Source: Marsupella aquatica
Taxonomy: Eukaryota; Plantae; Marchantiophyta
NCBI GenBank assembly: GCA_973895155.1
Contig: OZ316892.1
Span: forward strand, 4,176,510 to 4,240,509
DNA: 64,000 bases
Reading direction: 5' to 3'
The position numbers and the translations under genes are program-made. The notes under the pieces are model-generated. The model saw nothing but the letters and a program-made list of their open reading frames with translations, had not been told where the DNA came from and searched no databases. Positions 42,488 through 64,000 of this stretch are shown here, piece after piece (position 1 is the first letter of the stretch; every line of letters begins with the position of its first letter).

Positions 42488-43064
42488 TTGTCTATTTAAT
42501 TATTATAGGGTTGAATACAAAAAAGATTGACATGCACCAGGGTGCGTGACCTACAGTCATAGTAAGTACCACCCTTTAATTAATTATTTTCTTTACAACA
42601 ATTAATAGGATTGTTGTATATTACAATGTCTACTGGACATTCATTTGAATGTTAATAATATCATGCCTTAATATCACCAAACTAAGGGCCCACTAACTAA
42701 TATTATATCTTAAATAAACTAACCAACTAACTAACTTGTCTATTTAATTACTATAGGGTTGAATACAAAAAAGATTGACACGCACCAGGGTGCATGACCT
42801 ACAATTATAGTATCACCCTTTAATTAGTTAGTTTCTATTGCTTTGACTCAATCAGGCATGGAACCATATAAAATCAGAAATCATTGAAAGTTGAGTTCAC
42901 TTGAGGGTGTAACTATAATTATTATTTATTAATAGGATTGTTGTATATTATAATGTCTACTGGACATTCATTTGAATGTCAATAATATCATGCCTTAATA
43001 TCACCAAACTAAGGCCCCACTAACTAATATTATATCTTAAATAAACTAACCAACTAACTAACTT
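42488..43064. repeat. AT-rich imperfect tandem duplication (two copies)
   Basis: Blocks starting at 42488/42736 and at 42601/42928 are near-identical. Confidence 0.88.
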
Positions 43065-43693
43065 AGACGATAAGACTTGTCTAAACTCTGGCTTTTTCTG
43101 CTCTCTCTCGCCATCGCTACGATCGGGATCCGCTTTAGAGCCGGTTCTGCTGTTTTAGGGTGGAATACTAGTCTGGATTGCGGGAGCACAATTGTGGAGA
43201 TCCGGTCATGAGAGTTGGAGCCAGGGGTGGCGGATGAGCCGATGCGTTAGTCTAGCGGGAGCACCTTTCCCGCTGCCACTTTTGGAGGCGGGGATTAAAA
43301 GGTAGACACATTGGAACAGGGGTTCGCATGATCTGGTGGGGTGCTACAGTGGGCGACTGAAACAAACGGTGTGGATTACGGCAACGGACCTTGGTGTCTG
43401 CAAGCTCGGATTGGACAGCGAGTGGCGGCACTCAGATTCCTAAAAGTGTTTGGAGCTGACATTGCCAAAGAGGATGGCGGAACATGCAGAGAAGAGTTAA
43501 GGCGGCACAAAGTGTGCCTGAGTGGTTCTATTCTGATGGGAGAATTATGGAATAGTTCGGGAAGGACATCTTGGTTAATGAGATTGGACCCAGTGGACTC
43601 GAGAGGAGCCTGGAGCCCTCTTCGATTACAAGGTAAGCACTGCCCCGAACATCTTATTAACGCCGTCTGACTGTCATTGCATACATTAATTTA

Positions 43694-45928
43694 ATGTCGG
43701 GCGAAGGTGAAAAGGGATTGGACTACTACGGGCGCTTAGAAACCACATCTCGTGGAAGAAGCGATCGGAATGGACGTCTTTCTGAATCAAGGAACATCCG
43801 AGTGGCTACACTGATGGCTGTCCAGACTAGAACGGGGACGCTTCAGGGGGTGAGAGGGCGCGAGACCAATCTGGTTGGTTTGGCCTCTCAGAATAAAGGA
43901 AAACTCGGAGAGGAGGGAGTGGGGAGGTGCAACCAATTCTCGGCGCAAGATGCGCGGAATGATGGGGACGGACCACGGCGGGAGAGAAAGGGAGGAGGCA
44001 ATCCTGGCCTACAGGGAGAGAGTAGGGGGGGCTCAGCCGGCTCACAACGGGAGATACAGGACGATCTGATGGACATGGAAGAGGATGAGAATGGCGGCGG
44101 CTCAGCCGGCTCACAACGGGAGATACAGGACGATCTGATGGACATGGAAGAGGATGAGAATGGCGGCGGCTCAGCTCGGGACAAGGTCCCAGCCTTGGAT
44201 GGAGAGACACGACGTAGCCTGAGAGGTGCAGAGCTCAGGGGAGAGGGTCCTGGAATCTGTGGAATCTCAAATGGTACCCGGAATCCTGATACATGGGGCC
44301 GCGAAGGAGCTGAAGAGGAGGAAACATCGGAGGAATGTATCAGAATTTTGAGAGCTGTAGCACACCGCTCTAAGGGTGACCTTGACAAAAAGCTGTTTGC
44401 CACAGTTGAATGGAACATGACGGAAGCAGCTATGAATGTGAGGCAATTATATAACCATGCCTTGCTATGCTACTTCACAGACAGAACCCCATTGCTTCCA
44501 GCCTTCAGAGACTGGGTAGAAGACGAAATGACTAGCCAAGGGCGCTGGCCGGTGCTACAAGTCAAGTTTGTGGGGAAAATTTTTTACATGGTAATCCTTG
44601 AAGAACCTGATCATCGGGATCTGGCACTGAATGGGGCGCCATGGTTTATGGAAAATAGATTTGTATACACCTTCCCATGGGATCCAACCTTTGACATAAA
44701 AAATGAGTCTTACACCAAACTGCCAGTATGGATTGAGCTACCATTTAGAGCCTTGGAGCTGGAAGGATGCAGAAGGAAAATTGCAAGCGCGCTTGGCACC
44801 CTACTATACTACATTCAAGGAGACCAATTCAATTCTTACCCACATGACCGTGCGTGCATACTATGGGACACTGACAGGGAGATACCGGCAAGTGTTCGAG
44901 TGAAAATTCAGAAGGATATAGTAATTTGGCAACCGGTGACCTTCCGCAATATTCCTTACCACTGCTACAAATGCCATAAGAAAGGGCATCTAGCCCGCAG
45001 CTGTCGAGAAGGAGATGAAGGGCAGAGGCCGACGAGTGTGCTGGAAATACCTGATGAAAAAGACGACGAACGACACTCGGAGGCTGACCCAGAAGAGATA
45101 CAAAAGGCCCAAGAGAATGCTATGGTCCGGGTTAAATTCAGGGAGAACCAAGAGTGGCAGGCGAACACGATCCGGAAAAACTCAGTTGAGGAGGAAATTG
45201 CCCATGTGGAGCTGATCATTGCGACAGATGTTAGAGAACCGGACAAAGGAACTCCAGCTAACCCACAACGGCCGAATGTGGGTGCTATTGGGATGGAATT
45301 GCTGGAGCCCACTCGTGGACCCTTGGACGCCATGGTGAGATGGGAACCGACTAGGACTAAGGGGAATTCGCGAGACTTCCCACCTGGGAGTGGACTGGCC
45401 CGGGATCCTGGAGGTAACACAGACCGCAGAGGCTCTGTTCTAAATGCCAGTGCACCAAGCTTTGGGCCAGAATTCAGCACGAAGGCCAGAACAGACACAC
45501 TCGGGCTTCCAGGATCGCTCTTAGAGGTAGAAGCCGAAGGGAATTTCTCGTACCATGGGGACACCGATGCAGAGATGTCAGAATATGAAGCTTACATATC
45601 GAATAGCAAACTCAAAGCACGAACCAGGAAACAAGAATTGAGAACCCCCCCAACTGAAGATAAAGATAAGCCGAAGGGTGAAGCAAAAAAACAACGTTCG
45701 CTGTACTTCTCACGAGGATCCATGTCTGATGCAGGTGCGGGCGAAAGCTCAACAAGGACAAACAGATTGCTCAGCCCTGAAATGAGGAGTCCGAGAAGTG
45801 AACAAAGAGGCGCAACACAAACTAAGATGAGAGACGACTACTCCCTGATAGGGGGACTGACTGAGCAGCAAACAGGGAGCGGCTCTCAGGGCTGGATGCT
45901 ATCCCCTGGAGGACGGAATCGTATCTAG
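43694..45928 (+). CDS. L1 ORF1 (DUF4283-like region plus CCHC zinc knuckle)
   Basis: ALNGAPWFM…LPVWIELP…CYKCHKKGHLARSC; 69-bp internal duplication at about 44031-44168. Confidence 0.9.
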   Translation: MSGEGEKGLDYYGRLETTSRGRSDRNGRLSESRNIRVATLMAVQTRTGTLQGVRGRETNLVGLASQNKGKLGEEGVGRCNQFSAQDARNDGDGPRRERKGGGNPGLQGESRGGSAGSQREIQDDLMDMEEDENGGGSAGSQREIQDDLMDMEEDENGGGSARDKVPALDGETRRSLRGAELRGEGPGICGISNGTRNPDTWGREGAEEEETSEECIRILRAVAHRSKGDLDKKLFATVEWNMTEAAMNVRQLYNHALLCYFTDRTPLLPAFRDWVEDEMTSQGRWPVLQVKFVGKIFYMVILEEPDHRDLALNGAPWFMENRFVYTFPWDPTFDIKNESYTKLPVWIELPFRALELEGCRRKIASALGTLLYYIQGDQFNSYPHDRACILWDTDREIPASVRVKIQKDIVIWQPVTFRNIPYHCYKCHKKGHLARSCREGDEGQRPTSVLEIPDEKDDERHSEADPEEIQKAQENAMVRVKFRENQEWQANTIRKNSVEEEIAHVELIIATDVREPDKGTPANPQRPNVGAIGMELLEPTRGPLDAMVRWEPTRTKGNSRDFPPGSGLARDPGGNTDRRGSVLNASAPSFGPEFSTKARTDTLGLPGSLLEVEAEGNFSYHGDTDAEMSEYEAYISNSKLKARTRKQELRTPPTEDKDKPKGEAKKQRSLYFSRGSMSDAGAGESSTRTNRLLSPEMRSPRSEQRGATQTKMRDDYSLIGGLTEQQTGSGSQGWMLSPGGRNRI

Positions 45929-45990
45929 GGTGACGGTGTGCTGACCAAGTGCACCACTCGACTTGGGGAGCAGCGGGGGGGGGGGAGGGG

Positions 45991-48900
45991 ATGGAGAACA
46001 TAATGCGGATTGCCACATGGAACGTCTGTGGGCTGTGTGAGACAAACCGCAAACATGTCGTCAAAAACTGGGTACAGGCACTGCGATTTCCGCTAGGATG
46101 CCTAGCTCTACAAGAAGTGAAGACGGATCAATTCCGTTTGGACATGGCTTTGAGAACAATTCTCTCAAACTATCAACACTTCTCATCGGCACCAGAGGAA
46201 GGCAGGGGAGGAACGGCACTTCTGGTCCACCCGTCTTTGAAGGTGGTAGCATCAGGCAAACTGGACCTTGGCAGAGCTGTGTGGATAATCATTGAGAACG
46301 AAGGAGGCAATTATGGAGTGGCATCTATCTATGCACCAAACTCGGCTAACTTAAGGGCTTTGCTATGGAACGAGCTTAAGGATGAGCTTCCGCAGGTAAA
46401 CTGGATCATCTGTGGCGACTTCAACATGACAGAAAGAAGAGCGGACTCAACCGGGAGATCACCTCTGATCGGCGGAAGAGAAGCGGAATTCTGGCGCTTC
46501 TTAAAAACGCGCTTTGACCTGGTAGATGCGTGGGAGATCACCGGGGGCGCTACGGGTGCCCAATTCACATGGAGAAGGATGAGAAGGGGATTAATGGTAC
46601 AATCCCGATTAGATAGGTTCTACATTAGCGAGAAGGGATGGTGGTTAGAGAAGAGAGTAGAGCTGGTGCATGAAGGAGGATCAGCGTTATCAGACCATGA
46701 CCCGGTGATACTGAAAGGGAGGTTCAGAGATGCAGGTCAGAAGGTGGAGCGAGGTAAGGTGAGACTATTCATGGCCAATCCAGCGCTTCTAAGCAACAAG
46801 GAGGACCTGGCGCTTCTAGAAGGAGCCTGGAGGGAAGGAAGGAGGGAATTTGCAAACCCTGTGCTGCGATTTTCAAAAGCGTGCTCCAATTTTAGGCAAA
46901 AATACATGGAGTTACAAGCAAGACCAAGGCTGGCAGAGGTTGAGATGGAGTTTCTTAGAGCGAGAATGAGAGCACTGAAAGCATCCATTCTGGAGGAACA
47001 CACAGAGGATGAAATCAAGGAATACACGGAAACGGAAGACACACTGCATGCAATCGAGTTGGAAGTGGCTAATAAGGGACGGAGACTTGCAAGGATTAAA
47101 TGGCTGGGAGAAGGAGACGAATCAACAAAGTTCTTCTATGCGATAGTAAAGGCTAAACGCGCCCGAGAAACCATGAACCTGATTCTCAAAGAGGATGGGA
47201 CGGAGATAACAGAGGCGGCAAGCATTGTGCTTGAAGTGGAGAAAATGTGTCAAGCACTTTATGCACCGCAGGAACCCTCACAAAGGGAGACACAAGAACG
47301 ACGGCAAGAGAGGAGATGTCTACTGCAACACACAAAATTTGCGCTTACAGCGGCAGAGAGAATGAAATTGGAAGCTCTCCCGACAACTAAAGAGGTGAAG
47401 GAAGTGCTTTGGATGCTACCAGGAGACAAATCGCCTGGCCCAGACGGCTTAACGGCAGAAGTACTGCGCGCATGCTGGGAGTTTCTGGGACAGGACTTGG
47501 TGGAAATGATACAAGAATTCTGGATGATAGGAGAGATTGATAGTGCGTTAAAAGAAGGGATAATAAAGCTCATTCCGAAGAAGCCTGATAAGAGATCACT
47601 GAAGGACTGGCGTCCCCTTACAATGTTGAACACAACGTACAAAGTCATTGCTAAGATCCTGGCATTGCGGTTACAAGAAATCATGAACAAGATAATCAGC
47701 CCCCAACAGACCGGATTTATACAGGGGCGCCACATTCTGGAAAACATCTCACTGGCCTGGCTCGCATGTGACTGGATACAGCACAAGAAGACGGAGGCAC
47801 TTTTCTTGAAGTTGGATTTCGAAAAGGCCTTTGACAGGGTGAATCACGAATACATATGGGACACAATGCACTTACTGGGAATAAGTGGCCACTTTATCAC
47901 ACTGGTACGGGCTCTGTTGGCTGGATCTTTCTCGAAGGCAATGGTCAATGGTTTTGCGACGGGTATGATTGAGCTTAAGAGGGGGGTGAGACAGGGCTGC
48001 CCCTTGTCGCCCCTACTTTTTGTCATCTTGACACAACCGCTGATGGACTTCTTAGCTGCGGAGATGGAGGCTGGGAGACTTAGTGGACTGTCAATCACGG
48101 ACACACTCACAATATGCTACAGATTATTCGCAGATGATGTTGGAATGTTCATTCCTGCCACGGAGGAAGCTTTCACCCAGGCACAAACTGCACTTGCATG
48201 TTATGAAATGGGTTCTGGAGCAAAGCTGAACCTACGAAAATCTGTGGTGATTCCCTTGGCAATTGAGGTCATCCTGGATTGGCTGCTGTACTCTGGCTGT
48301 CAAGTGAGTGCAATGGGGGAGGTTCATAAATATCTGGGCGCTCCCTTGGGGGCCGGGCTGAAGACTGAGCAACTGCACAGATTCTGCCTAGATAAAATCA
48401 GCTCACGACTGTCATCCTGGACAAATAAGCTCCTCTCTTTCACAGGTCGAACCTTATTGGTCAAACACGTGCTCCAGGCCATCCCAATCTACCATGTGAT
48501 GCACCTCAAGGCTTCAGCGGGTCTGGCCAAGAAACTCATTGCCCTCAGTAGAGATTTTCTGTGGGGATATAATCCTGCAGGTGGGAAGAAAATTCCGCTG
48601 GTGGCATGGGACAAGATGACACTTCCAAAAATAGAGGGCGGCCTGGGATTCAAGGACTTCAGAAGCCACTCCAATGCATTATTATCACAATGGTTCACTA
48701 AGGCCCTAGAGTATCCAGACAGGGAATGGTCGAAGATGCTGGCAGCCAACTTATCTTTAATGGGATGGTTGAATTACAAGGTGATCAGAAGAAACAATTA
48801 CACGTTCAAGGATAGGCTTCTGCTCTGTACTCCTAGGGCAGGCGGTGGTCTCAGGTATACAAGTGGTCTATGGAAGGCTTGGGAGGAGCTGCGTGCCCAT

Positions 48901-49935
48901 CTGGCTTTTTGTCCTGGGAGATATGGTGCCCCTGGACGCTGGAGCATTAACGATGCAATTAGATGTATGGTAGATTTCAATTCATTGCCAAATGTGGACA
49001 TTGTAGGAGTCACTGCTATTTGTGGACACTTGGGAATGAGATCAATTCAGGACGGATGGTCGGTGGAGACAGGGGGCTGGAAAGACCTTCCGCTTAGGGG
49101 GCAGGTGCTGCGAGGATTCACGGGGGAGCACAGAGGGCTGGCTAGAGCGTTCCCAGGGAGAATTTGGGAGTCAACTGCCTGCAGGTGGGACAGGGATCCT
49201 CCGGCCAGATAGTGGCGCTGGTCTGACAGGGCAGAACCTCTCAAGGACTTTCAGATCACCAACTGCAGGGTCTACCAGTTCTTGAGACCCAAGATGAGCC
49301 TTCATGTGCTGCTTAATAGGTGCTGGTCCTCACACCGGTCGGAAATTGAATGGTGCATTGGATGGAAGAAGCTGTGGATTTCTGACCTCTCCTGCAGGGC
49401 AAAAACCTTTATCTGGCGGATCCTGGTTGGTGGATTGTTTACTGGTCAACGGGCCCTCCGTATCCAGGCTGGTACTGGGAATTGCAAGCTTTGCTGTGGG
49501 GTCTTGGAGACGATGCAACATTTGTTCATTGAATGTTCCCATGCCTCATGTTGCTGGAGGATGTGTGACAGGATTTTGACGGAGCTTCGCTTACCCATTG
49601 GAGGTGGTCTGCTGGCTATTCTTGATGCATTGACAGGACCGGAGCCTATTCACACTGCTAGGATCTTTTGTGTATATCAGACTCTCTGGATGATTTGGCT
49701 GGGAAGAAATGAACATATGTTCTCTGACAAGGTGGGACGTTCATTTGACTTGGGCCTGATGCTTGCTGAGACTGCCAATCACATCCATGCGGTTGGGGCT
49801 GGTTTACGCTTTGGGCGGCGTCGCTCTCGGTTGAACCGGGCTCAGGAATGGTTGCGGGGAACGAGGCAAATCTGGCTGGGACGGGGTGGGGACAGGATTC
49901 TCTTGGTGCCCTCTAGCGGCGGTGTTGCTGATTGA
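45991..49935 (+). pseudogene. L1 ORF2 (AP endonuclease, reverse transcriptase, zf-RVT) with one in-frame stop
   Basis: ATWNVCG, LQEVK, GDFN, SRLDRF, SDHDP, KSPGPDG, WRPLTMLN, KLDFEKAFD, GVRQGCPLSP, LFADD; TAG at 49210-49212, frame continues to CKLC…ETMQHLFIEC. Confidence 0.95.
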
Positions 49936-50247
49936 GGGGTCTGCTTTTTGGGGGGCTGCTGTGGGAAGGGCATGGGTGCTCTCTTGATCGGTGTTATTTC
50001 CCTTCTTTGAGGGGGGGCTCTCCCTGGGGCTTTGATGCTCTCTTTTGTGCTTTTGGGCTCTCTTTGTGGCTCGCTAGTGTGCTGTTGCTGTCCCTGTATT
50101 AAGGGCTGTTGTTCCCCCTATCCGTGGGGTCTTTCACGGTATTAAAATTTATAAAAAAAACCATTCCAAGGAAACTTGAGTTCTTTGGCTACTACTATTC
50201 TGAGTTGCCTTTTAAACTGTATGCTAAACTACATGCTTCATTATTGT

Positions 50248-53200
50248 CTAGGATTTGTCACTTGCTATGCATGTCAAGAGATAGTCTCTTGCCTTGACAG
50301 CAACATTCTTTGGAATTCCTACCAGCCCTGTCACTGGTCCTTTGCGTGCTTTCAAACACCACAAGGCAGAGGAAACATCTATTGTCTCAGCTTCCTTGTA
50401 TATTGGAGTTGGATCACGTTCCCATTTCTTATCCCAAGAATCTGCCCACCGCTCTCTTGGCTGCCAGTCTGATTGACCACGTTGCTTCTTTGCCATAAAT
50501 GGTCTAAACCACTCAACGCCACATACATGAGTAAGAAGGTTTTGTTCATTCACTGGTCCTTCTACCACATCTGTAACAACTAACCCCATATGGACGGGAT
50601 AAACATCCAGGTCTGAGTCGTCCGGCCGTACCAACACATAACAGCCCTTCACAACATCAACCCTAGGGTTAAAACTCTCAGGAGGTTTATCTTTTGCTGG
50701 TCCCACATAATCCACTGTTGCCTCCAACTCACATGCCACATTTCGATATTCTGGTGGAACGTGCTCTCTCCATATTGATAAAGGCCAAAACCCGTATTCC
50801 AAGTTGTGTGCACCTTCAGGTTCATATTGCACCTGCTCACCCTATAGAGTATCTACAATGTCATTCCAATAATTGATGAGAGTTGTCCAACGTTGCTTTG
50901 GTTCTTCCTCTTTTGTTCGCTTTAGAATAAACTCAAAGAATGACACATGCTTCTTCAACCCTGTCAGCACTTCAGGAAGCATTTTCAACTCCATCATTGG
51001 TAGCCGTTTGGGCACCCCAATTGGGATGTGAGGACTTTTGTAATCTTTCCATGACCACATTTCAATACCTTCCTTGGGTAACCATCCCTGATCAGTTGAC
51101 TTCATTTTGTATTGGAAGCATGACATACTATCATGACGAACATAGAACCTAAACAACCTGGGTTTTAAATGCCCCACCAATGCCTCAGGGCCCTTCAACA
51201 TGAATGGAGCTAAGTAGTTTTTAAAATCTGGGACCTCCTGTAGAAAACGTGGGACTGCATTGGGTGTCCTTGCTCTCATGAACAAGGACATTAACTCAGG
51301 CAATGAGTATGTGGGGTTATGCATCATAGACTCTGAAAAATGCCCGAACATACCGTCAACGTCCTCATGAGTATGCCCAACTACCATAAAACCAAGATGA
51401 ACCTCTTCAAACACCTCCCTTGCCGTCAACAATGACAAATAAGCCATCATATATCTGTTCTTGTTGTCTGAGGCACAATTATCCAGTTGTAGCTTCAATA
51501 CTCGTGGAAGGGGCCTGAACTTTGGTGTCTCAGGTGCTGCATCACAATGTAACAATCTCAGAATGCTTTTAAATAAAACCCTAGTCAGACCCTAAACCCC
51601 AATTTAGGGTTTAGGGTTTAAACCCTATTAATGAAACCTTGGCTAGGAGGAGCAACAACTACACAAAGTAGAGTGTCAGTGTGTGTGAGCTTATATTATT
51701 AAATAATAATAAATTAAAGGATTGTGAGTAAAGTACCTAGGCTTGAGATGTAGGCAATGTCATCCTCAAATGCTCTACGGACACTTGCCTCCAAGATATC
51801 TGCTCTCCCAAAAAGGAGGTCTTTAAAACGACTTGTCGAGTCTGGCCCCTCCACAAGTGATTTGATCATTGGATTTGGGTTTTCCAACATCCTTAGTATT
51901 GAATCAATTGACCCAATAGTGATGTTGACATCACCTGGCCACACTCCAACATGATATTGGGCTATGGCCTTGGGACCATGACCATGAGTAAGGATACCAG
52001 TGACAGTAATTGGGAACTTTTGGGCACCATCCACATGCTTAGGATTGAAGGGCATTCTTGGGAGAGCTGTCTTTGAATGATCCATCTTATCATGAATAAG
52101 GCATAACACTTCCTTTGGACGATGGATGGACTCATATCTCCAGGTATGATAGCACATTCTTTGCTATGTGTGGTCTTGGTGATGTTCCTCCTCGTCACGC
52201 CTTAGGCCCTCTAACTCTTCCTTAGCTCCTGTAAGGTTTGCTTTCCGTTGAAGCAACTCACTACAAGTTGTACACTTTGAAAAGTTGTTGCCCTTTTTGT
52301 GACGTGAGAACTCCCTGAAATACATCTGATGTAGATGACTCAAGGTGGGTTGGGAAATTGGAGGAAGACCAGCCTCCTGGTTGACAACATTAACCCTGTT
52401 TCTAATATTCTCCCAAGTAAGATTTGTTGGCAATTCCCTCAAAACCATCCTTGTACTATCTGCCATGGTTCTCAACTTGGCTAGATGATGATCAACTGCC
52501 TCAATAATCTCTTTCATTGACATGAACGCTTGAGATACTTTCTCAGACATACGCCTTTTTCCAGCATTACCATGGGTACCTATGTTCATTCCAGCCATCA
52601 CAGTCTTCTTCAAGGCATAAAATTGAGTCTTTCCTCTTGAATGAATGATTCTCCATGCCTCCAAGCACAATACTTTGCCCTCCACTGCTAGAATCCTTTC
52701 TCCAATACCCAAGTGTATTGTATTTTTAATACCCTTGATTTCCTCCTCCTTGCGCTCCGCAAAAGATTTTGACCACCACTTTTGCCTAATTGCCATAGCC
52801 AAGTTGCGGTCCAAATATTGGCAACAATGTTCACTACAACAGTCCTTAGTGTTTATCAACAACACATCTTGACGTGCCAAAGATGTGTCTCTTCTAGATG
52901 TCTGGGAAGATGGACTCTTTCTTTTCCTACTTTTATGGACGTAGGACCGCTTGCCACTTGTTGGAGATGTGTTCCCTCCCACAGCTTGCCTGATGTTGTG
53001 GAAAGACAACAAGTTGCCATCCTTGGCAATGAGTTGGTCCATCGACCAAGCTTTTAAGCAATCTCTATGCTTCAGATGACCTATGGTAGCTCCCTCGACA
53101 AAATCGTTGATCAGAATTCCCACATGTGTATTCCCAAGGGTGACATCCCCAAGCTTCACTATAGGATCTAGAACATGTATAGTTGCCACTGCAAAAATCA

Positions 53201-53635
53201 ACTTGTTCTCATCCACCACCTTTACAGGCATGCCCATCCACAAGGCCTTTGGTAAAACTACTTCCACACCAGACCATTATGGTTATTCCCATCAGAATTT
53301 TGATTGACTGGATCTTGATCATCACCAACAGTGCCAAACACATCCTCCAATTCCATGGGAGCTCGAAAAAGCTGATTCCTTTCCCATACAAGGTAACCCC
53401 CAATCATGTCCTTCAAAAGTTTGCCATCTTCGCAAAGAATGGTCTCGTCAAAAACTTCCTCCAATAGAAGAAGAACTCTGTCCGCCCCAAGAGGAACATT
53501 GTGACAAACCCTGGAAGGATCAAGACTTATCACGTGACCTTTTCCAACCTGTTTCTCACGTATGCCTATAATAACTTGTCCGCCTTCCCTGATCCAGATT
53601 GTTGATGTCACCATAATAATTATGATCCTGCACAT
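50248..53635 (-). pseudogene. DUF7869/Sola1-like RNase-H-fold transposase, disrupted
   Basis: FSKCTTC, IHDKMDHSK, LQLDNCASDNKN, FMVVGHTHEDVDGMF; in-frame TAGs at 52164 and 50842, frameshift near 53260, intron near 51560-51737. Superfamily assignment is tentative. Confidence 0.8.
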
Positions 53636-53679: not shown

Positions 53680-54480
53680 TTTCACTGCACTGTCCTGTCA
53701 CGTCGGTCAATAAGCAGAATGTAGTCAATGCACTGCGCTGCACGCGACTGGTCGCGTGACCCTAGAGGTACCACACATACCGGCAACAGACTATGCATGG
53801 TCCGTCAGTCATTTCAAATGAATGAGAATGACCACAATCGATTATGATCAATCATTTCACATCCACTCAGAACAAATGAGTGGACAGTCAGTAACTACTG
53901 AGGACAGTAGTGCTAATAAGCGCCAGTAAAACGTCCGTGAACTGCATTGTCCTATCACAACCGTCAATAAGTAGGTAGAATGTAGTCAATGCACTACCCT
54001 GCACGCGACTAGTCGCGTGACCTTAGTCAGAGGGTGTAGGGATAACAGGGTCTATGACGTAGAAGCTAAAAGGCTAGGCCCAAACTCTAGCTCGTACTTG
54101 GTACTTCATAAGTAAGATACGATTGCGCGTGAGATAGGAAGATACAATTACGGATCTAAAGGCATGTCGCGTGACCTTAGTCAAAGGGTGTAGGGATAAC
54201 AGGGTCTACGACGTAGAAGCTAGAAGGCTAGGCCCAAACTCTAGCTCGTAATTGGTACTTCATAAATAAGATACGATTGCGCGCGAGACAGGAAGATACA
54301 ATTACGGATCTAAAGGCATCACACATACCGGTAAAGATTATGCATGGTCCGTCAGTCATTTCAAGTGAATGAGAACGACTACAATCGATTACGAACAATC
54401 ATTTCAACTCCACTAAGAAAAAATGAATGGACAGTACCAGTTTACCAATGAGTGGACACCGGACAGTCAGTAACTACTGA
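53680..54480. repeat. Composite direct repeats (154-bp tandem pair and others) with palindromic motif copies
   Basis: 54013-54166 matches 54167-54320; blocks at 53772 and 54320 match. Confidence 0.88.
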
Positions 54481-54796
54481 CCTTCATAAGAAATCTCAGT
54501 ACTTCACTAGCAATCAGTATTCCCGGGGCGGTCACCAAACATGAAATTAAAGCCATAATTAGAGGACAACTGAATTCCCGCCAATTCTAATACGCGCCAG
54601 TCAAACGCGCACCCTCTTCTAGAAACCACTATGTACAATGACTAGTGGAGACTAAACAGGAAATAAAGCATTGAGATGATCCCTATTGCTCATTCCCCCA
54701 CGCATTCCACTTTTTGGCTACTGGATAATCTATTCGCACATCAGCTCTCTCATTTCCAATTCTTAGTCTCGGTCAGCATCTCTTGTTTGAAGGGCG

Positions 54797-55339
54797 ATGA
54801 CTACTCCGCTGAGCTCGAAGAATGAGGATGTTTCGACGGACAATTCAGAAGGTTTGACGTATCGAATTCATGGTACTCCTTACAAAATGTGTCAGCGATG
54901 TAATATAATATTTACGGTGACTAAATCGGGTCAAATGTTTTGTGAGAGACGACATTGTTCACCACATTTATCGATGGAAGATCAGATGGAGACCAATCCG
55001 ATAGAGATGACTACAAAGATGGTATCAGAGGAGAAGTTAAAGGGCAAAGCCCTCGTAGAATCCGTTTCGAGGGGGGAGAAGTTGAAGGCCAGAGCATGCG
55101 TCGAATCCATTTCAGGGGAAGCAGCAGCAGATGCTAAGACAGTCAAGAAGGAGGCCAAGAAAGTGGATGCACCGAAGAAAAGGCAATTAGAGATGAACAA
55201 AGATTCTGATTTGTATTACAGAAAGAGCAAGCCGAGAAAATCTATGGACGTTAGGACTTGGGCAAAGGAAGAATTTCTGGATTCAAGGGAATCCACACCA
55301 GACACCGATGAGTGGATGCCTTCATCTTGGAATGACTGA
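54797..55339 (+). CDS. Hypothetical 180-aa protein with possible Zn ribbon and basic/acidic tail
   Basis: Open ATG ORF; CQRC…CERRHC; PKKR and RRKSKPRK NLS-like stretches. Confidence 0.55.
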   Translation: MTTPLSSKNEDVSTDNSEGLTYRIHGTPYKMCQRCNIIFTVTKSGQMFCERRHCSPHLSMEDQMETNPIEMTTKMVSEEKLKGKALVESVSRGEKLKARACVESISGEAAADAKTVKKEAKKVDAPKKRQLEMNKDSDLYYRKSKPRKSMDVRTWAKEEFLDSRESTPDTDEWMPSSWND

Positions 55340-55549
55340 CTCGATCGAAGTCAACAATATTTTGAGTAGTCAAAGATTAGAACTACAGATTCAAGAGTAG
55401 TTCAAGTTAGAACTTGTTATAGATACTGTGTAGCTTAAATTCCTGGATAGTGCTACTGGATATGGATTCCACATCCGAAGTCCTTCGGGATCAATGTAAC
55501 CATTTTTGCAATCAAGGAAAAATCGAGATTCCTCTGACTGACAATTTGT

Positions 55550-56500
55550 TAGGCTGTCGACTACAATAAACAATATAAAAAAGACCTGAGATAAATTGGT
55601 TCACGCGACTGTGCGCGTGATGAACTATATGTGTAACCAAAAACAGGTCATCCTACTAACAAGTTGAGATCAGGCAGATCTGAGAAATAAAGGGCGATTA
55701 CGTCTAAGAGTGCAGAGCTTTCGCTGACCTCTAAAACATTAACGCGACCGGGCGCGTGATGAAACGAAGACCTCAGTTTTAAAATATATTTCTAGCCAAT
55801 TTGCTAGGCAATCGACTACAATAAACAATATCAAGATAAATTGGTTCACGCGACTGTGTGCGTGATGAACTACATGTGTAACAAAAAAAACAGGTCATCC
55901 TACTAACAAGTTGAGATCAGGAAGATCTGAGAAATAAAGGGCGATTACGTCTAAGAGTGCAGAGCTTTCGCTGACCTCTAAAACATTAACGCGACCGGTC
56001 GCATGATGAAACGCAGAACTCAGTTTCAAAATAGATTGCTGGCCAATTCGCTAGGTTGTCGACTACAATAAACAATATCAAAAGACACGTGATAAATTGG
56101 TTCACGCGACTGTGCGCGTGACGAACTACATGTGTAACCAAAAAAAAGGTCATCCTACTAACAAGTTGAGATCAGGAAGATCTGAGAAATAAAGGGCGAT
56201 TACGTCTAAGAGTGCAGAGCTTTCGCTGACCTCTAAAACATTAACGCGACCGTGCGCGTGATGAAGCGAAGACGTTGGTTTTAAAATAGATTGCTGGCCA
56301 ATTCGCTAGGCTGTCGACTACAATAAACAATATCAAAAGACACGAGATAAATTGGTTCACGCGACTGTGCGCGTGACGAACTACATGTGTAACCAAAAAA
56401 CAGGTCATCCTACTAACAAGTTGAGATCAGGAAGATCTGAAAAATGGACCTCGATTATGTTTCGTTTTGCTAGGCCGTCGACTACAATAAACAATAGCAA
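55550..56500. repeat. About 250-bp tandem repeat, roughly 3.7 copies, two palindromic motifs per unit
   Basis: TCGACTACAATAAACAATA recurs near 55557, 55812, 56059, 56314 and 56478. Confidence 0.92.
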
Positions 56501-57909
56501 AACATACGGACAACTATACGCGTACGCCATACAATTTTAGACTAGAGAATTCATTCGGATCCTCTACTAGTACTTTTGATACATTGCTTCTGTATTGGAC
56601 TTGAAACACGGATTGATCAAAATCGGAGTGAGAAATTGGACCATAACTTCATTGACTCAATTCATGCATTGAATGCATGATTTAAGGCAACTACTCTCCT
56701 CATTTATTGCGGAATTAATGCTGATTGATACTTACAAGTTATTCAGTTGCGTGTGGTCTCAGCAATGTTGGCGGCAACCCTCCGATGTTGGTGGAAACCC
56801 TCCTCCCAGCCAAGCCTCTTCCTTCCAGTGTAGCCTCCTCGTCCCAGCCAACTAAGCCTCCTCCTTCGAACTCCAATTTCCTTGAGTATCATGATTGAAT
56901 CCCACCACCAGAGAATGACAACTTGTTGATTGTATCAAGATCAAAATCCTCGACCAGACTGTGATTTCAGAATAGCCCCTCTTTGTTGGTCCGCTAGAAT
57001 GCTTCGATGAATGAGGCAGACTATGGAGGTTCTAAATGTTTGTCGTCTCGCTTCATCGCAACTCTCCCGCTTGATCGGATGTGCTCTCCTAAGATTGAAG
57101 GTGATACAACAAGAACTGCGCCAGCATTGCTTGAATGAGCTCCGCCTCCGACTGGAATAGTCGAATGATCCAATCTGCTCCACCTCAAATGTGCCTTAGA
57201 TCAGCCTCCGCTGAGAGCCCAGCTAGTATCCTGGTCAGGAGAAACTGAAAATGAAGAATGATCCATGAGCAATGAGATCAGTCTATTGACTCCATGGAGG
57301 ATGTGTTCATCTGGACTCGATTTTGATTTTGAAAATTGGTTGAGTCTCCAGTCGTGAGAATCATTGTACAGGATTGATTTTGAATATCGGTTCTCCCCGA
57401 CTGTGAGAATCGTTTTACGTTGTTTAGAGTAAGGGTTTGAATTGGCAAGATAGAGAGTGGAGTACGGATCCAGATCCGACGGTCTCCACTACCAAAATGG
57501 AATGATTTTGAAGTTTGCCTCCACTACGTGATGGAACGATCGTGAGAAAGTTGTCGTTCGTTCACATTTTGGATTTGAATTGGCAGATATAGTGAAGATA
57601 CGGATCCGGGGGTCCCCACTAACAATCTTTCGCAGTTGCATAATTACCGGTTTAAATTTCAAATTGGCGATCAAATATAAATCTCCTTTAGTACGGCAAA
57701 TCAAAACGAATCCGGTAATCTTTTTTTCACGATTGCATAGTTTGTTCAGTCGATGGTGGAGTGTACGGAGATCATCTGGAACCTTCCTGTCGCTAGGCTG
57801 TTATTAGGGTTATGCTAAAACAATACCCTAATTAGTCCTTCCTTAGTGTCGGCGCCCACGGTCTCGAGTTCACTGTTCATTGTTGTTGTTTCTCACTCCC
57901 TAGACTTTC

Positions 57910-58143
57910 GCGCTCTTGCTCTCGTCGCTCTCGCTCTCGTCGCTCTCGCTCTCGTCGCTCTCGCTCTCGTCACTCTCGTTGCTCTCATCGCTCTCATCGC
58001 TCTCATCACTCTCGTCGCTCTCGCTCTCGTCGCTCTTGCTCTCGTCGCTCTCACTCTCGTTGCTCTCGCTCTTGTCGCTCTCGTCGCTCTCGCTCTTGCT
58101 CTCGCTCTCGCTCTCGCTCTTGCTCTCGCTCTCGCTCTCGCTC
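57910..58143. repeat. (GCTCTC)n/(GCTCTCGTC)n microsatellite
   Basis: Direct reading of the sequence. Confidence 0.95.
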
Positions 58144-59234
58144 CTGCCCTGGATTTCATTTTTGTCGTTGCAGCTCGTTTGTTGTGGTCAGGTGCTTGTT
58201 GGCGCGTTGCAGCTCTTAGTAGTTGTCCATCGTTTTGACCAGGAGCTCGTTGGCGCATTGCAGCTCGCATTTACAGCTCGTATTCACTTCTAGTTTGCTA
58301 GTTCGTTGCAGCTAGCTTTTTGGGAGTGCTTGTATCAGCTCGTGTCAGCCAATTTTAAGCTCATATCAGCTCGATCAACGTGTTTCAGCAGCTCAAACTA
58401 CTTTTTGGCAGCTTGTTTTAGCTCCTTCCATTCAGCATTCAGGTTTGTTTCACCTCTTTGAATCTTCAGGTTTAGTGCGCTTTTATTCATGCTCAGTTTG
58501 CCTATCCATAGCTTTGATTGTACTTCTGAAAGAGTCTTTTTAACTCGACATAATGAGCTCCTTAGCATTAAGCACATGTTATTCAATTGGTGGCAGCGAA
58601 GCTCTATGTATAGAAGTATAGAAGCTGTGTTGTTGTTGCTTAGCATATTAATATCTTCAATCTTATATTTACTTTCTGGAATGCCGCAACAAGGTCTTCA
58701 AGTGCTTGGACGTCAATCTCTCAGATGATTACATCAATTTTTCAGAATTTAGGTGCAATTTCTACATTTTCTGCTGGTGTTGATTGTGGTTTGCTAAAAT
58801 TTCTCTTGATTGTTAAGCTGAGTTTTCATAATGCGGTTTTTTTGTAAACTCAAATATGTGTGAATCATACAAACTCACTAATTAAAATACAACCTGAATC
58901 ATCTTAAGTAAGTCATTACAAACTTGCACGCTGTGAATTTAATCATATAAACTCTCATGTTATGTGAATCTCATTACACTGAATCCTTTAATTGACGAAT
59001 ACAACCAGTAGACTGCTAAATTGAATCATCTTAGCTGGATCATTCTCTAAACTTCTGATATATAATAGTTTCACAATGACAAAGCTCAAACATCTGAATT
59101 ATTGTAAAGTTCATGAATGAATACAAATGAATGAATACAAATGAATGAAATCATGCTTACTCGGATTTCCTTGTCCGTACGGGTCAGTAATCACAGTTGT
59201 ATCACTGTATTATCCTATTGTCCAAAAGTTGTTT

Positions 59235-60085
59235 GAGCTGTTGACGCGACCAGTTGCGTGAAAATATTGTGAGGTTCCTTTTAGGACCAGTTGACGCGAC
59301 CAATCGCGTGTGAGAAGGAAACTGGATAGATTTATTGAGCGCGTACCATATCCAAATCTCCACAAGGAAGGTTCAGTGGATATAGTTGATTAGGTTCAGT
59401 TGACGCGACCAGTCGCGTCAAGTAGCTCTCTCATTGACTGGTTCTGTTAGAGGAGGTAAGGTTCCTTTTAGGACCAGTTGACGCGACCAGTCGCGTGTCA
59501 GAAGGAAACAGGATAGATTTACTGAGCGCGTACCATATCCAAATCTCCACAAGGAAGGTTCAGTGGATATAGTTGTTTAGGTTCAGTTGATGCGACCAGT
59601 CGCGTCTGAGGTAGCTCTCTCATTGACTGGTTCAGTTAGAGGAGGTAAGGTTCCTTTTAGGACCAGTTGACGTGACCAGTCGCATGTGAGAAGGAAACTG
59701 GATAGATTTACTGAGCACGTACCATATTGAAATCTCCACAAGGAAGGTTCAGTGGATATAGTTGTTTAGGTTTAGGTGACGCGACCAGTCGCGTCTGAGG
59801 TAGCTCTCTCATTGACTGGTTCTGTTAGAGGAGGTAAAGTTCCTTTTAGGACCAGTTGACTCGCGTCTGAGGTAGATCTCTCATTGACTGGTTCTGTTAG
59901 AGGAGGTAAGGTTTCATTTAGGAGCAGTTGACGCGACCATTCGCGTCTGAGGTAGCTCTCTCATTGACTGGTTCTGTTAGAGGACGAAGCAACATTTATG
60001 ATTTGTCACGTTGTGACCCAAAAAAATCAGTCTCTCAAAGAATTGTTTATACATTCTGATTTGTAGACGCGACCAGTCGCGTGAA
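59235..60085. repeat. About 185-bp tandem repeat array rich in ACGCGACCAGTCGCGT
   Basis: AGGTTCCTTTTAGGACCAGTTGAC recurs near 59272, 59460, 59649 and 59838, plus partial units. Confidence 0.92.
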
Positions 60086-60123
60086 AATAATCTCTGGGAT
60101 ATATCATTTGGCTGAAAAGAGTC

Positions 60124-60675
60124 ATGGGCGAACCTGGTCTGGAGAGCTTCAGATATCTATGCCCAATATTTGATGTTTTGGACAGAAGCCAAGATGGTCT
60201 ACTAGCGGGATATTCTGTATTTGTTGAAACACTACTACCTGGACTTCCAGATTTCATTGTCGCGGAATTGATATGGCCTCGGATCAAGGAGACTTTTAAT
60301 TCCTCGACTAATGCAGGAAATTTCTCAATAAAGGAATTGGATGAGTTTGTAGGACTATCTTCGGTGTGTCGCAGATGGCGCCACCTTGTTGGGAATACCT
60401 ATCTTCTAGGTGTAATCAAGTTGAGTTTATTAGATTTGGCTTTCCCAGGAAATCCTACTAAACCGATCGGAAATGAGTCTCTCTCATCGATAGTTCAAAG
60501 TTTCTTCCAGAAATACCCAAGAATTAAATTCATGGGGTCAATGTCCAGAGATCTTAGGGAACTCTTCACGAAGACTTACGATGCTCTTCACCCTCTTGAA
60601 AAATGGAAATTTACAGTCAGATGCCACGAAGTTGGATACCTTGAGGGTGACATCTATGCTTTTAAGGAATTCTAG
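60124..60675 (+). CDS. Small F-box-like protein 1 (183 aa)
   Basis: LLPGLPDFIVAELIWPRI…LSSVCRRWRHLV. Confidence 0.75.
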   Translation: MGEPGLESFRYLCPIFDVLDRSQDGLLAGYSVFVETLLPGLPDFIVAELIWPRIKETFNSSTNAGNFSIKELDEFVGLSSVCRRWRHLVGNTYLLGVIKLSLLDLAFPGNPTKPIGNESLSSIVQSFFQKYPRIKFMGSMSRDLRELFTKTYDALHPLEKWKFTVRCHEVGYLEGDIYAFKEF

Positions 60676-60740
60676 TTAACTTACGTGACCAAGCGCGTCG
60701 TATGTCTTCTAACAATGTTTTGTGATATGATAAAAGCAGG

Positions 60741-61247
60741 ATGAGCCAACTTTTGAATGAGGCTCGAGATTTCCTTTCATCTCATGAAAAGAAACAGAAA
60801 ACAATATGGGATACGCTGGATGAAACCTCCTCTAGTCTCATTGGAGGAATACCAGATGTTTTGGTCATTTCAAACATTTGGCCAATACTCTACGAACACT
60901 TTATTTCAATTGAAAGATTGCGTGGATATCGACACCTCGATAACGATTTGGTTATCGATAGGGTCCGAGACCTTATTCCGCTTGGAGCTTGTAGCAAGAA
61001 GTGGAACTTTTTAGTTACAAATACAAGGTTATGGGCTATTCTCAAACAAGCAAACCGGATTGTCGATGTCGCAAATGATGCTCTTTACGACATACTCGAA
61101 ACTGACGAGTTGGAGTTTGACTCAGTCTGTCGAGTTATTCGACAGGATATTTTTATGCTTCCAGAAATATCTGTTCTTGGGACTACTACTTCTGATGAAA
61201 TCGCATTGTTTACGAACAAATATAACAATTTAGATGAGGAAGAATGA
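60741..61247 (+). CDS. Small F-box-like protein 2 (168 aa; stop may be premature)
   Basis: LIGGIPDVLVISNIWPIL…LGACSKKWNFLVTNTRLW. Confidence 0.72.
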   Translation: MSQLLNEARDFLSSHEKKQKTIWDTLDETSSSLIGGIPDVLVISNIWPILYEHFISIERLRGYRHLDNDLVIDRVRDLIPLGACSKKWNFLVTNTRLWAILKQANRIVDVANDALYDILETDELEFDSVCRVIRQDIFMLPEISVLGTTTSDEIALFTNKYNNLDEEE

Positions 61248-61341
61248 GATGTCCTAATCGAAAGGTTTGGTAGATTTTCTCAGAATCTCGGTGGTCCCAG
61301 TTCTTAATGGATAGGTTCTTGTTCTTAATCTTTTCCATATT

Positions 61342-61872
61342 ATGCTGCAGTCCTTTGACATGAATCAAAAATCTCATCATCAAATGATGATGGAGCGCAT
61401 TGCACGTGCAAAGGTTATCAACCGAAACATGATATGGAGTCAAGCTGAAGACCTGATACCCGGTCTTCCGGACGATATTGTCGAGAAATATATTTGGCCA
61501 TTAGTCAAAGAGTTTTTCCACTGTCTTGGGAATTTGTCGGATACTGCGATTAAAAATTGGGTCATGGACTTTATCGCCATTCGAATAGTCAGTAAGAAGT
61601 GGTGCCACATAGTTACTTATAGTAGTACTTGGGCGACGGTCACCTTGGTAGCTTACGACTTCATTGATAGACCAGGATATGAATCGCTTCGAAGGCATTT
61701 GACTTCATGGAGTGTAGCATTAAGATTTACAGAATCCATTAGAACTCTCCCGCCGCTGGACATTTTGGGTGGATTTGAAGGATCTGAACTTGACACATTT
61801 AGGAACCTTTGGTTTTGGTTAGATGAAGATGAGCGAGAAGATTGGGTCAGGATAAATGTTCCTAAAATGTAA
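61342..61872 (+). CDS. Small F-box-like protein 3 (176 aa)
   Basis: LIPGLPDDIVEKYIWPLV…IRIVSKKWCHIVTYSSTW. Confidence 0.78.
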   Translation: MLQSFDMNQKSHHQMMMERIARAKVINRNMIWSQAEDLIPGLPDDIVEKYIWPLVKEFFHCLGNLSDTAIKNWVMDFIAIRIVSKKWCHIVTYSSTWATVTLVAYDFIDRPGYESLRRHLTSWSVALRFTESIRTLPPLDILGGFEGSELDTFRNLWFWLDEDEREDWVRINVPKM

Positions 61873-61947
61873 TTCGGCACGACGCGACCATGCGCGTGTT
61901 AGTATTTTATAATAAACGTTTAACTTTCAATATTTGTCTGTTTCAGA

Positions 61948-64000
61948 ATGGATCCTACCGGAACCTCAAAGCGGAAAAGAGACTCGTCTAAAGCTGCTTC
62001 TCGTAAGAAAACCAAGACAAAAATGACTCCCGCGGAGACATCCATACTTGCATATCGAGGAAAGTCAATTAGAGAGAGAACAACGGAGACGAAGAGTATC
62101 CATCTCTTTGAATTGACTGAGATATCCGATTTTGGAATAGTCATTTGCAATGGGGCTGTCCGTCTTGTGATGGCAAGAAATGATAAAGCTACAGTTTTGG
62201 AGAGATAAAAAATTCTCGGGTGTTTCTTTGAGAAGAACATGAAAGTTAAAGAGTGTATAGAGGGATTGGTTCTGCTAGTCAGCGACGACCAACAGGAAGA
62301 CAAAATAAGCATTTGTTTGGATCGAACGCAATATATAACCTTCAATCAGCCCAGAATCAATGATCTTCTAGGTGCAAGGCACGCCTTGGAAAAAGTTACT
62401 AGTGTGGAATCTATCCTTCCGATCCAGAGGGATCAACGGGAGATTTAATTTGTCAATACATTATTGACGTACTTGAGTTCCAGAGAGTTCCTTTCAACCA
62501 GGGATTTCGCTTGGGAAAGGCCCCGCCAGTGAGCAAGGTTGAAGTATACTTGGCGGAGAATCTTCTGAAAGTAATTACCTCAGTGAATGTCGGGGCTCTA
62601 TTCGATTCTTTCCTCAAAGAATATAGTGCTGTGAATATATTTAACAGCAAGTCATTTTTTGTTGAGATATCACGTTGTCATCTTGCACCGGACCACATCA
62701 AGTGCCGAGAGTGGAATCAGGATTACACAGATAGGCTAAAGAATTCACTCCTCTCTCATTCGGCTATAAAGTTTGAGAAGCGATGCTGCTTTTTAGTCCC
62801 TGTGAAGTGGGTTCAGTCGGAGGCCGACAGAGATCCCGACTACAATGGGGCGCCCTACGATTCATCGCCAAAGGAGGAGGACATTATGACCAGTCATTTT
62901 TGGATACTCGGAGGCCAGCACACAATAATGGCGTACAAATTGCTAAGAGAGGACGACAAAGTCAGCCAAGTTGTACGAGACGCTTGCGGTACTGTAGAAG
63001 CTGTAATGTTTTGGGCAACGCTCAACAACGACAATAATGTTCATTTGATGGGATTATCGAAAGCTCTGAACCACTGTCATCAAACATCAATGGAAGAAGG
63101 ACAGTTTCTCACCATTGTACGACAGTGTCGTAATATCTGGAACTCATTTGGGCGGCCTGGATCACATTATTGTCATCCAAATTGGAAGGTATATAAATAT
63201 CCCTCTTCGATCACATTATCATTTAAACTTTTGTCACGCGAACGGTCGCGTCAAGCTTAGAATTGTCATGTTTCCATTGTTTTTCAGGTATTTATGAGAG
63301 CTACGAGTTTTGTTTGCCCATGGGCTCAAATGGGGAAGAACGAAATGATGAAATTTGGAGAATTGGCTCCGTTTCTCTTTACAATGGAGGACGAAACATT
63401 CAAGAAGTGGATGGAGGTCTACGAACTATCAAGGACAGGAGAGCTTGTAATTTACAACAGAATTTTATAGAGGGATGCCATCAAAATTGCGGATAATCCA
63501 TGTGCTTATCATCTTCTGAAGAAGACGTTCCGTTCTTGTCAAGGGTGCTCAGACTCGGTTCTTCGAAAGGCAGCGGAATATATGTTGAGCGGAAGACTGT
63601 CTATACTCAAAAACCGAAGCATCAAAGTGAAATCTAGGAAGGCGAGGAAGTCCTCTGAGGCTCCAGTGTTGTCAACGACCAGCATGAGTTTGGAGCAATT
63701 CTGTATAAAGAAGAAGACGAAAGTTGAGTTTGAGATTTTATTATTGAGTAAACTCAACGGGGAGACATCCACCCGGACGGAGCTGAAAAGTCTGACAGAT
63801 TCAGCGCAGAAATTGCGGGTCAAAGGAATGATTGATCGCTTTAAGCTCAACAAGATGGTGCTGAAGCAGTTGAGACATGCGATGAGTGGTTATCTGAAGA
63901 AGTGCTTAAATGTAAATATTAGTAATGATAATTTGTTGAAGGAGATCGACCCTATATTCTACAGGTTGGTGGAAGGAATACAGAAATCAGTTGATAGTCA
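61948..64000 (+). pseudogene. Large spliced gene with a ParB/Srx-like domain, disrupted, runs off the right edge
   Basis: N-terminal NLS-like stretch; CREWNQDYTDRLKNSL…FWILGGQHTIMAY…LSKALN; stop at 62206, frameshift near 62420, intron 63189-63287, stop near 63468, frame open to 64000. Confidence 0.6.

What the first reader, a model, noticed from the sequence alone, without database searches (positions are those of the whole stretch)
53741..63251. A 16-bp CG-rich palindrome (ACGCGAC-NN-GTCGCGT) marks the non-coding gaps of an element encoding a ParB-like protein
Seen: roughly two dozen copies, including near-perfect ones at 53741, 54002, 59401 and 60067. They sit in three otherwise unrelated tandem arrays and singly just after the stops of F-box ORFs 1 and 3 (60683, 61882) and inside the 99-bp intron of the ParB-like gene (63236). 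I saw none in coding sequence, and the CpGs are mostly kept in a window where many stops look like C>T changes. Known: bacterial ParB loads at 16-bp palindromic parS sites; VANC anti-silencing motifs accumulate in non-coding repeats. Inference: an element-encoded dimeric protein recognises this operator-like site to self-mark or protect the element.
Basis: partly seen in the sequence, partly recalled or inferred. Interest (0 to 1): 0.8.

Follow-up and report, generated by a model that had tools for sequence, protein, structure and literature searches.

The report
Transposon palindromes mark CpG-keeping cargo half
A decaying copy of a large plant jumping gene carries 21 copies of one 16-base DNA palindrome, all outside its genes, over the half that has kept its CG letters, and the element's own predicted ParB-fold protein likely binds these sites to hold off silencing, a design already proposed for algal transposons.

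Summary
Observation confirmed: 19 copies within 2 mismatches (0 in 100 shuffles), 21 within 3, all at 53742-63251, none in coding DNA, in 10 unrelated contexts. Public contigs indicate one multi-copy DNA transposon running from left of 42.5 kb to beyond 64 kb, split here by a LINE. It holds a Sola-like transposase, three weakly F-box-like ORFs and a broken spliced gene whose domain has a predicted ParB/Sulfiredoxin fold. New here: CpG density triples at a change point (53348-53921) that contains the first palindrome. The motif-free transposase is CpG-poor; the motif-studded half keeps CpG even at codon wobble sites. This resembles the local CG protection shown for VANC. Against: motif CpGs are not kept significantly better than their flanks, this copy is itself decaying by CG/CHG deamination, the ParB arginine is missing, and no HTH or methylase could be shown. 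Binding and genome-wide confinement are untested. ParB-like cargo with inverted-repeat arrays is already proposed for red and brown algal transposons, and this scan noted it repeatedly on other DNA of the same genome. In passing: a phage group pairs private palindromes, one identical to this motif, with a variable gene.

The parts
42490..43082 (.). Left part of the element (3' non-coding side of the transposase), two tandem units; true left end not located
   Evidence: Contigs of 3 of 4 runs join 43053-43082 directly to 50172; the duplication is visible
42532..42547 (.). Variant palindrome ATGCACC-AG-GGTGCGT
42780..42795 (.). Variant palindrome ACGCACC-AG-GGTGCAT, about 360 bp from the transposase stop once the LINE is removed
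43083..50171 (+). L1-type LINE inserted into the element (not part of it); AAACT at both junctions
   Evidence: RVT_1, endonuclease, DUF4283; empty-site join
50248..53635 (-). Sola-like DDD transposase gene, broken by stops and a frameshift, probable intron near 51560-51710; CpG o/e 0.29-0.35; no palindrome
   Evidence: DUF7869 E 1e-37; the Sola label is recalled, not tested
53742..54018 (.). Two perfect palindromes (53742, 54003), 107 bp upstream of the transposase's first ORF; CpG change point
54797..55339 (+). 180-codon ORF of unknown function
   Evidence: no Pfam or PHROG match
55542..56445 (.). 255-bp tandem array, two palindromes per unit (7 copies)
59244..60082 (.). 189/72-bp tandem array with 7 palindromes, flanked by single copies at 59244 and 60067
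60124..61872 (+). Three paralogous, weakly F-box-like ORFs (60124-60675, 60741-61247, 61342-61872); palindrome at 60683
   Evidence: mutual BLASTP E 2e-12 to 4e-11; Pfam F-box E about 0.01, below cut-off
61882..61897 (.). Single palindrome between the third ORF and the ParB-like gene, 66 bp before its ATG
61948..64000 (+). ParB-like accessory gene, runs off the window; broken (stop 62206, frameshift near 62407-62448, stop 63468); ParB/Srx-fold domain at about 62640-63090
63189..63287 (+). 99-bp intron holding the palindrome at 63236
   Evidence: GT..AG ends; homologous reading frames lose similarity at the same W-x-V position and P0025 reads across it

Best explanation
The palindrome ACGCGAC-YR-GTCGCGT is likely the private docking site of a protein encoded by this large DNA transposon, most likely its predicted ParB-fold accessory protein, which would bind it as a dimer and locally keep host CG methylation off the half that carries the promoters and accessory genes. 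Shown: the motif, its exclusion from coding DNA, its presence in 10 unrelated contexts, its place in one multi-copy element, and a CpG step at the first copy. Predicted: the ParB/Srx fold. Inferred: binding, dimer state and anti-silencing. Tandem duplication would multiply the sites, as in VANDAL elements; copies that lose the accessory gene, like this one, would be methylated and decay. My odds: site for an element-encoded protein 0.7; that protein is the ParB-like one 0.6; the effect is protection from CG methylation 0.45.
For: 19 copies against 0 by chance. Flanks unrelated in 65 of 66 pairs. 0 of 21 in coding DNA. C followed by G: 42 of 808 left against 324 of 1893 right of a change point at 53348-53921, motifs masked; lnL gain 40 against at most 8.1 in 200 permutations. 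Wobble CpG observed/expected 16/53.4 in the transposase against 24/32.9 in the ParB-like gene (p = 0.004). The intron position is shared with homologues at about 25-55% identity, so the gene is an old eukaryotic resident that still kept CpG. All 8 structural matches at Z 5 or more are ParB/Srx family, best PadC Z 8.6, rmsd 2.8, 96 aligned; Foldseek's top 10 are ParB, Noc and PadC. Atlas first hit DUF3723 at 0.95, ParB_N at 0.92. No depth step at 53.6-53.9 kb. The variant at 42532/42780 is changed in both arms and stays palindromic. VANC21 removes CG methylation locally at its non-coding sites (PMC5735166).
Against: No binding data. Motif CpGs are not significantly better kept than flank CpGs (p = 0.22). 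This copy shows deamination in the motif half: 17 of 23 C/G-to-T/A differences there are in CG or CHG context against 36% background (30 of 40 displayed rows used, 555 rows not displayed). The motif reads GGQHT, DGQH or GGMH in all 18 records that match it, never with the GxxRxxA arginine. The matched ParB domain is the nucleotide-binding one; bacterial parS recognition comes from a separate HTH, which I could not show: the model of the downstream part failed (pLDDT 38). Foldseek E-values were all above 0.001 and Z 8.6 is only just above the usual background. No listed contig bridges both the transposase start and the first motif (32 of 2651 pieces shown). CpG stays high at 57001-57880, 600-1400 bp from any motif.
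Confidence: 0.55

Rival explanations
1. The motif is a site for a host transcription factor: two inverted CGCG boxes (CAMTA-type or MluI-box-type, both recalled) that the element multiplied to drive its cargo genes; host factor binding keeps the region under-methylated and the ParB-like protein is a bystander.
For: The CGCG core is the least variable part. Single copies lie 57, 58 and 66 bases before ATGs and 107 bases before the transposase's first ORF.
Against: Fixed 16-bp dyad spacing, a copy inside an intron, and variant copies on the 3' side of the transposase. No copy in the other transposons of 1-42.4 kb. Unchecked notes report different palindromes for different families in this genome.
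Confidence: 0.15
2. The site is bound by an element protein, but for transcriptional control or for marking by a fused methylase-like domain, and the CpG-rich half simply reflects recent capture of the cargo module from an unmethylated donor.
For: The CpG step coincides with the module border, and all cargo ORFs share it. A 58%-identical homologue of exon 2 continues about 215 residues past the window end into an alpha/beta region that looks methylase-like by eye. ParB-methylase fusions are reported on an algal Sola element.
Against: A shared intron position in distant homologues argues for long nuclear residence. The methylase reading had no support from Pfam, PHROGs, PDB sequences, the Atlas or the fold search. 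No relative of the ParB-like domain or of the third F-box-like ORF was found in viral contigs.
Confidence: 0.17
3. The motif works as an RNA hairpin that steers alternative 3' splice-site choice along a polycistronic cargo transcript.
For: Gaps between ORFs are only 65-95 bp. Copies lie about 35-50 bases before AG acceptor-like sites ahead of the second ORF, the ParB-like ATG and exon 2 (sequence). The variant changes both arms.
Against: Folding z-scores of 6 sites run from -2.07 to +0.38. Most copies lie in tandem arrays far from splice sites. No Rfam match. The centre is always a pyrimidine-purine step, which is symmetric on duplex DNA.
Confidence: 0.07
4. The sites are bound by the transposase itself, like subterminal repeats, and serve synapsis or autoregulation.
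For: Palindromes flank the transposase gene on both sides once the LINE is removed.
Against: Sites are spread over more than 9 kb of interior, between and inside cargo genes.
Confidence: 0.06

Closest known systems
PAG3 and its inverted-repeat arrays in Plavaka transposons of the red alga Bostrychia (bioRxiv 10.1101/2025.02.11.637652; passages and section 8 read; supplements not seen)
   Same: Giant DNA transposon, accessory gene with a ParB-like domain, tandem arrays of inverted repeats beside it, and the same proposal that the protein binds and modifies its own element.
   Different: Plavaka (EnSpm) transposase and a 2OG-oxygenase fusion there; here a Sola-like transposase, F-box-like cargo, a land plant (inferred), single sites in introns and gaps, and a measured CpG step.
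Sola1-1_Ec32 of Ectocarpus (PMC12477816; passages and supplement rows read)
   Same: 21.5-kb Sola1 element with a ParB-like gene on the strand opposite to the transposase, as here.
   Different: Its protein has an N4C/N6A methyltransferase domain; here that part lies beyond the window and was not shown. The word 'palindrom' does not occur in the main text.
VANDAL/VANC anti-silencing in Arabidopsis (PMC5735166; passages and section 7 read)
   Same: Short motif piled up by tandem repeats in introns, intergenic and terminal non-coding DNA; CG hypomethylation local to the bound sites.
   Different: VANC motifs are 9-bp, non-palindromic and shown by ChIP and EMSA; Mutator-like host element; no ParB fold is mentioned in what I read.
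Bacterial ParB/Noc/KorB with parS-type sites (PMC8494293, PMC13495010; passages)
   Same: Predicted ParB/Srx N-domain fold; 16-bp palindrome.
   Different: GxxRxxA arginine absent, HTH not shown, no ParA in the window, site sequence unlike parS (recalled), about 20 sites in 10 kb.

Membership tests
ParB/Sulfiredoxin fold superfamily | ParB N-domain fold | tested here: met
   Model pLDDT 77.5; 8 of 8 matches at Z 5 or more are family members, best Z 8.6, rmsd 2.8, 96 aligned; Foldseek best E 3.5e-3. Moderate strength.
Bacterial ParB CTPase clamp (ParABS) | GxxRxxA CTP motif | tested here: not met
   GGQHTIMA here; no arginine in any of 18 matching records; motif defined in PMC13495010.
Bacterial ParB CTPase clamp (ParABS) | Central HTH that reads the palindrome | tested here: inconclusive
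   The region after the ParB domain is predicted helical, but the model of homologue P0031 failed (pLDDT 38); no Pfam HTH.
Bacterial ParB CTPase clamp (ParABS) | Partner ParA ATPase | tested here: inconclusive
   None among 26 window ORFs scanned; the element runs beyond the window.
Sola transposons | DDD transposase of Sola type | tested here: inconclusive
   DUF7869 E 1e-37; the link of this domain and its motifs to Sola is recalled and echoed by earlier notes; no paper holds DUF7869; no comparison with a reference Sola transposase was possible.
Sola transposons | Terminal inverted repeats and 4-bp target duplication (PMC10741241) | not testable with these tools
ParB-methyltransferase accessory genes (Sola1-1_Ec32 type) | Fused N4C/N6A methyltransferase domain | tested here: inconclusive
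   Beyond the window. Homologue P0031 gave no family or fold match.
VANC-type anti-silencing system | Element-specific motif accumulated in non-coding tandem repeats | tested here: met
   (within the window only)
VANC-type anti-silencing system | Element protein binds the motif and lowers methylation | not testable with these tools
   Only the indirect CpG step.
VANC-type anti-silencing system | Homology to VANC proteins | not tested
   No direct comparison made; Pfam showed no such family for the cargo ORFs.
F-box proteins | F-box domain at Pfam cut-off | tested here: inconclusive
   3 of 3 ORFs hit F-box models at E 0.0095-0.014, 15.6-16.3 bits, below cut-offs of 20.5-24.3.

The most novel reading that the evidence does not exclude
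Land-plant DNA transposons run a second, ParB-derived anti-silencing system, independent of VANC: a CTPase-less ParB-fold clamp loads at family-private palindromes, spreads a few hundred bases and shuts out CG methylation, leaving a CpG-island-like footprint that ends at the outermost site, while F-box-like cargo may remove host silencing proteins.
Probability: 0.25. Interest if true: 0.8.

Novelty: new variant of a known kind. Interest (0 to 1): 0.52.

Why it matters
[quoted passage not shown] The algal ParB-like cases are proposals without a defined site or footprint in what I read. This element gives an exact 16-bp site, a candidate protein and a measurable CpG edge, so the idea can be tested with one binding assay and one methylome. 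A portable site-plus-protein pair that keeps plant DNA unmethylated would also be useful for transgene expression. The interest is tempered because the design is in print as a hypothesis and this scan met it many times in the same genome.

Tried and rejected
Run search: no RNA holder listed. Metagenome scan with the ParB-like alignment gave 1 locus of 39 candidates, L001, an antisense chance match in a bacterial kinase gene. Viral scans for the ParB-like domain and the third F-box-like ORF found nothing. Pfam, PHROGs and PDB sequence searches did not name the ParB-like domain. The model of the downstream half failed and its fold search is meaningless; the Atlas gave only 0.80 hits. No second ParB-like gene in the window. 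No Rfam match in 41-64 kb. The phage protein beside the identical palindrome does not match the plant profile (probability 0.1), and no ParB-like hit was found in the viral loci; I reject common origin as unsupported. Look-ups of earlier findings by place and by sequence were empty. Literature: one search was flawed (whole-word 'palindrom') and counts for nothing; searches showed no land-plant ParB-palindrome paper among the rows listed (one search listed 20 of 132). Iyer et al. 2011, cited by the Ectocarpus paper, was not read, and the bioRxiv supplements with the Bostrychia repeat sequences were not seen; either may bear on novelty. No complex prediction was run.
Full report
OBSERVATION. The motif is real. 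ACGCGACNNGTCGCGT has 19 matches within 2 mismatches and none in 100 dinucleotide shuffles. 21 copies within 3 mismatches lie between 53742 and 63251. They sit in an imperfect duplication near 53.7-54.0 kb, a 255-bp array and a 189/72-bp array, and singly at 59244, 60067, 60683, 61882 and 63236. The arrays share nothing but the motif, and only 1 of 66 pairs of contexts has related flanks, which leaves 10 independent contexts. None of 21 copies is in coding DNA, which fills 53% of the element's part from 50162 on (p about 5e-4 for 10 contexts). 77 of 84 arm CpGs are intact and the centre is CA, TG, CG or TA in 21 of 21.

HOST AND ELEMENT. No genome is held. The window is full of decayed transposons with CG depletion and, in places, CHG depletion, which points to a land plant; earlier unchecked notes say liverwort, which I did not test. 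Contigs from public runs cover 50.2-64 kb more deeply than the neighbouring LINE, with no step at 53.6-53.9 kb (summed depth is not a copy number). In 3 of 4 runs a contig joins 43053-43082 directly to 50172, so the LINE at 43083-50171 is a later insertion and the element continues to its left. There, two copies of a variant palindrome changed in both arms lie at 42532 and 42780. Joints that skip internal parts, such as 57066 to 59396, suggest deleted derivatives. The element holds a DUF7869 transposase on the minus strand (E 1e-37; the Sola label is recalled), an unknown ORF, three paralogous weakly F-box-like ORFs, and a spliced gene starting at 61948 that leaves the window. This copy differs from the common form at 27 listed near-fixed sites in 3.5 kb of the transposase part and its main genes are broken.

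THE PROTEIN. The domain before the intron has 26 relatives at E up to 0.001, one of them a compositional false hit. The ten I looked up are unnamed. Their similarity ends at the same W-x-V position, and P0025 reads across it, which supports an old shared intron. The model has mean pLDDT 77.5. Foldseek's top ten are ParB, Noc and PadC, best E 3.5e-3. All 8 matches at Z 5 or more among 48,161 chains are ParB/Sulfiredoxin relatives, best Z 8.6. The Atlas gives DUF3723 at 0.95 and ParB_N at 0.92. The signature GxxRxxA of ParB CTPases reads GGQHTIMA and lacks the arginine in all 18 matching records. In bacteria the palindrome is read by a separate HTH; I could not show one. A 58%-identical homologue of exon 2 runs about 215 residues past the window end; it looks methylase-like by eye, but five tools gave no support.

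THE CpG FOOTPRINT. CpG observed/expected is 0.29-0.35 in the transposase and 0.64-1.05 in the six cargo coding blocks. With motifs and the simple repeat masked, C is followed by G in 42 of 808 cases left and 324 of 1893 right of a change point whose interval, 53348-53921, holds the transposase start and the first palindrome; the lnL gain is 40 against at most 8.1 in 200 permutations. At codon wobble positions the counts are 16 of 53.4 expected in the transposase and 24 of 32.9 in the ParB-like gene (p = 0.004). As this copy is about 1% from its family, the contrast belongs to the family, not to the copy (inference). VANC21 lowers CG methylation only near its non-coding binding sites, which is the same pattern. 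Results against: motif CpGs decayed at 5 of 110 sites against 7 of 68 in array flanks, p = 0.22; the masked 59.2-60.1 kb array is itself CpG-poor (0.29); 17 of 23 C/G-to-T/A differences in the motif half are in CG or CHG context against 36% background (from 30 of 40 displayed rows of 595), so this copy has been methylated like a silenced element; recent capture from an unmethylated donor would also give a step at the module border.

MECHANISM. I commit, at 0.55, to a private docking site for the element's ParB-fold protein that keeps CG methylation off the promoter and cargo half in active lineages. Binding, dimer state and anti-silencing are inferred. Rivals: host CGCG-box factor (0.15), element protein with another role plus recent capture (0.17), RNA hairpin near splice acceptors (0.07), transposase sites (0.06).

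WHAT IS KNOWN. The Bostrychia preprint already describes a ParB-like accessory gene with tandem inverted-repeat arrays on giant transposons and proposes self-binding. The Ectocarpus paper describes a 21.5-kb Sola1 element with a ParB-methyltransferase gene opposite the transposase. VANC is the tested precedent. PMC4738411 mentions ParB-type HTH fusions to adenine methylases in algae and phage ParB-terminase loci (passages). Earlier notes of this scan describe the same design in other pieces of this genome (14 different notes shown) and led me to the Ectocarpus and VANC papers; they are not independent support. It works like VANC and PAG3; it is not a member of the bacterial ParB CTPases, since the arginine test failed.

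SIDE FINDING. A scan of viral contigs for the exact motif gave 23 loci, 22 with one exact site. One AT-rich phage fragment has six perfect copies in 3.2 kb of early-gene gaps beside the terminase. Among 80 related phage loci, 34 have their own palindrome in 3 or more perfect copies, different even where the small terminase is 98-99% identical. A variable 214-263-residue gene tracks the palindrome: for 10 seed proteins, every hit of 50% identity or more that had a called palindrome showed the same arm and spacer, except one locus with a single change (no control for shared descent). That protein is unrelated to the plant one. This shows that such private palindromes go with a variable element gene elsewhere, and that the same 14 bases can arise twice.

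VERDICT. Real feature; new variant of a known kind; interest 0.52.

Noticed in passing
L025 (G001) 602-3203; related loci L090-L169: A phage group carries lineage-private 16-20-bp palindromes in the gaps of its early genes, just upstream of ribosome-binding sites in the cases read; one lineage has the same 16-mer as this window. 34 of 80 loci show such a repeat, and a variable 214-263-aa gene without a named family co-varies with it. Likely a swappable regulator-operator pair; worth its own follow-up.
   Followed up: partly
window 42532-42795: Two copies of a variant palindrome ACGCACC-AG-GGTGCGT, changed in both arms, on the far side of the transposase.
   Followed up: partly
window 43083-50171: Near full-length L1-type LINE with long ORF1 and ORF2, inserted in the element; it ends in a short A-run followed by CCATTCCAAGG, and a similar tail follows the A-run in other copies.
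   Followed up: partly
window 60700-61950: Acceptor-like pyrimidine-AG sites just before the starts of the second and third F-box-like ORFs and the ParB-like gene, with gaps under 100 bp, suggest alternative splicing from one upstream promoter.
   Followed up: no
window 57880-58300: (TCGCTC)n-type repeat, open on the minus strand as Arg-Ala/Thr or Glu-Arg runs; may be part of a further cargo gene.
   Followed up: no
window 5254-6075, 22547-23092, 28031-28711: SET-, BRCT- and PHD-domain ORFs beside CACTA-like transposase remnants, suggesting other transposons with chromatin cargo; no recurrent perfect palindrome found near them.
   Followed up: partly
window 388-413, 1062-1189, 51570-51625: Short telomere-like TAAACCC/TTTAGGG runs, including inside the probable transposase intron.
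   Followed up: no
window 12009-12370, 28723-28938, 40860-41303: Further tandem arrays (19 bp x 19, 72 bp x 3, 36 bp x 12) without the palindrome.
   Followed up: no
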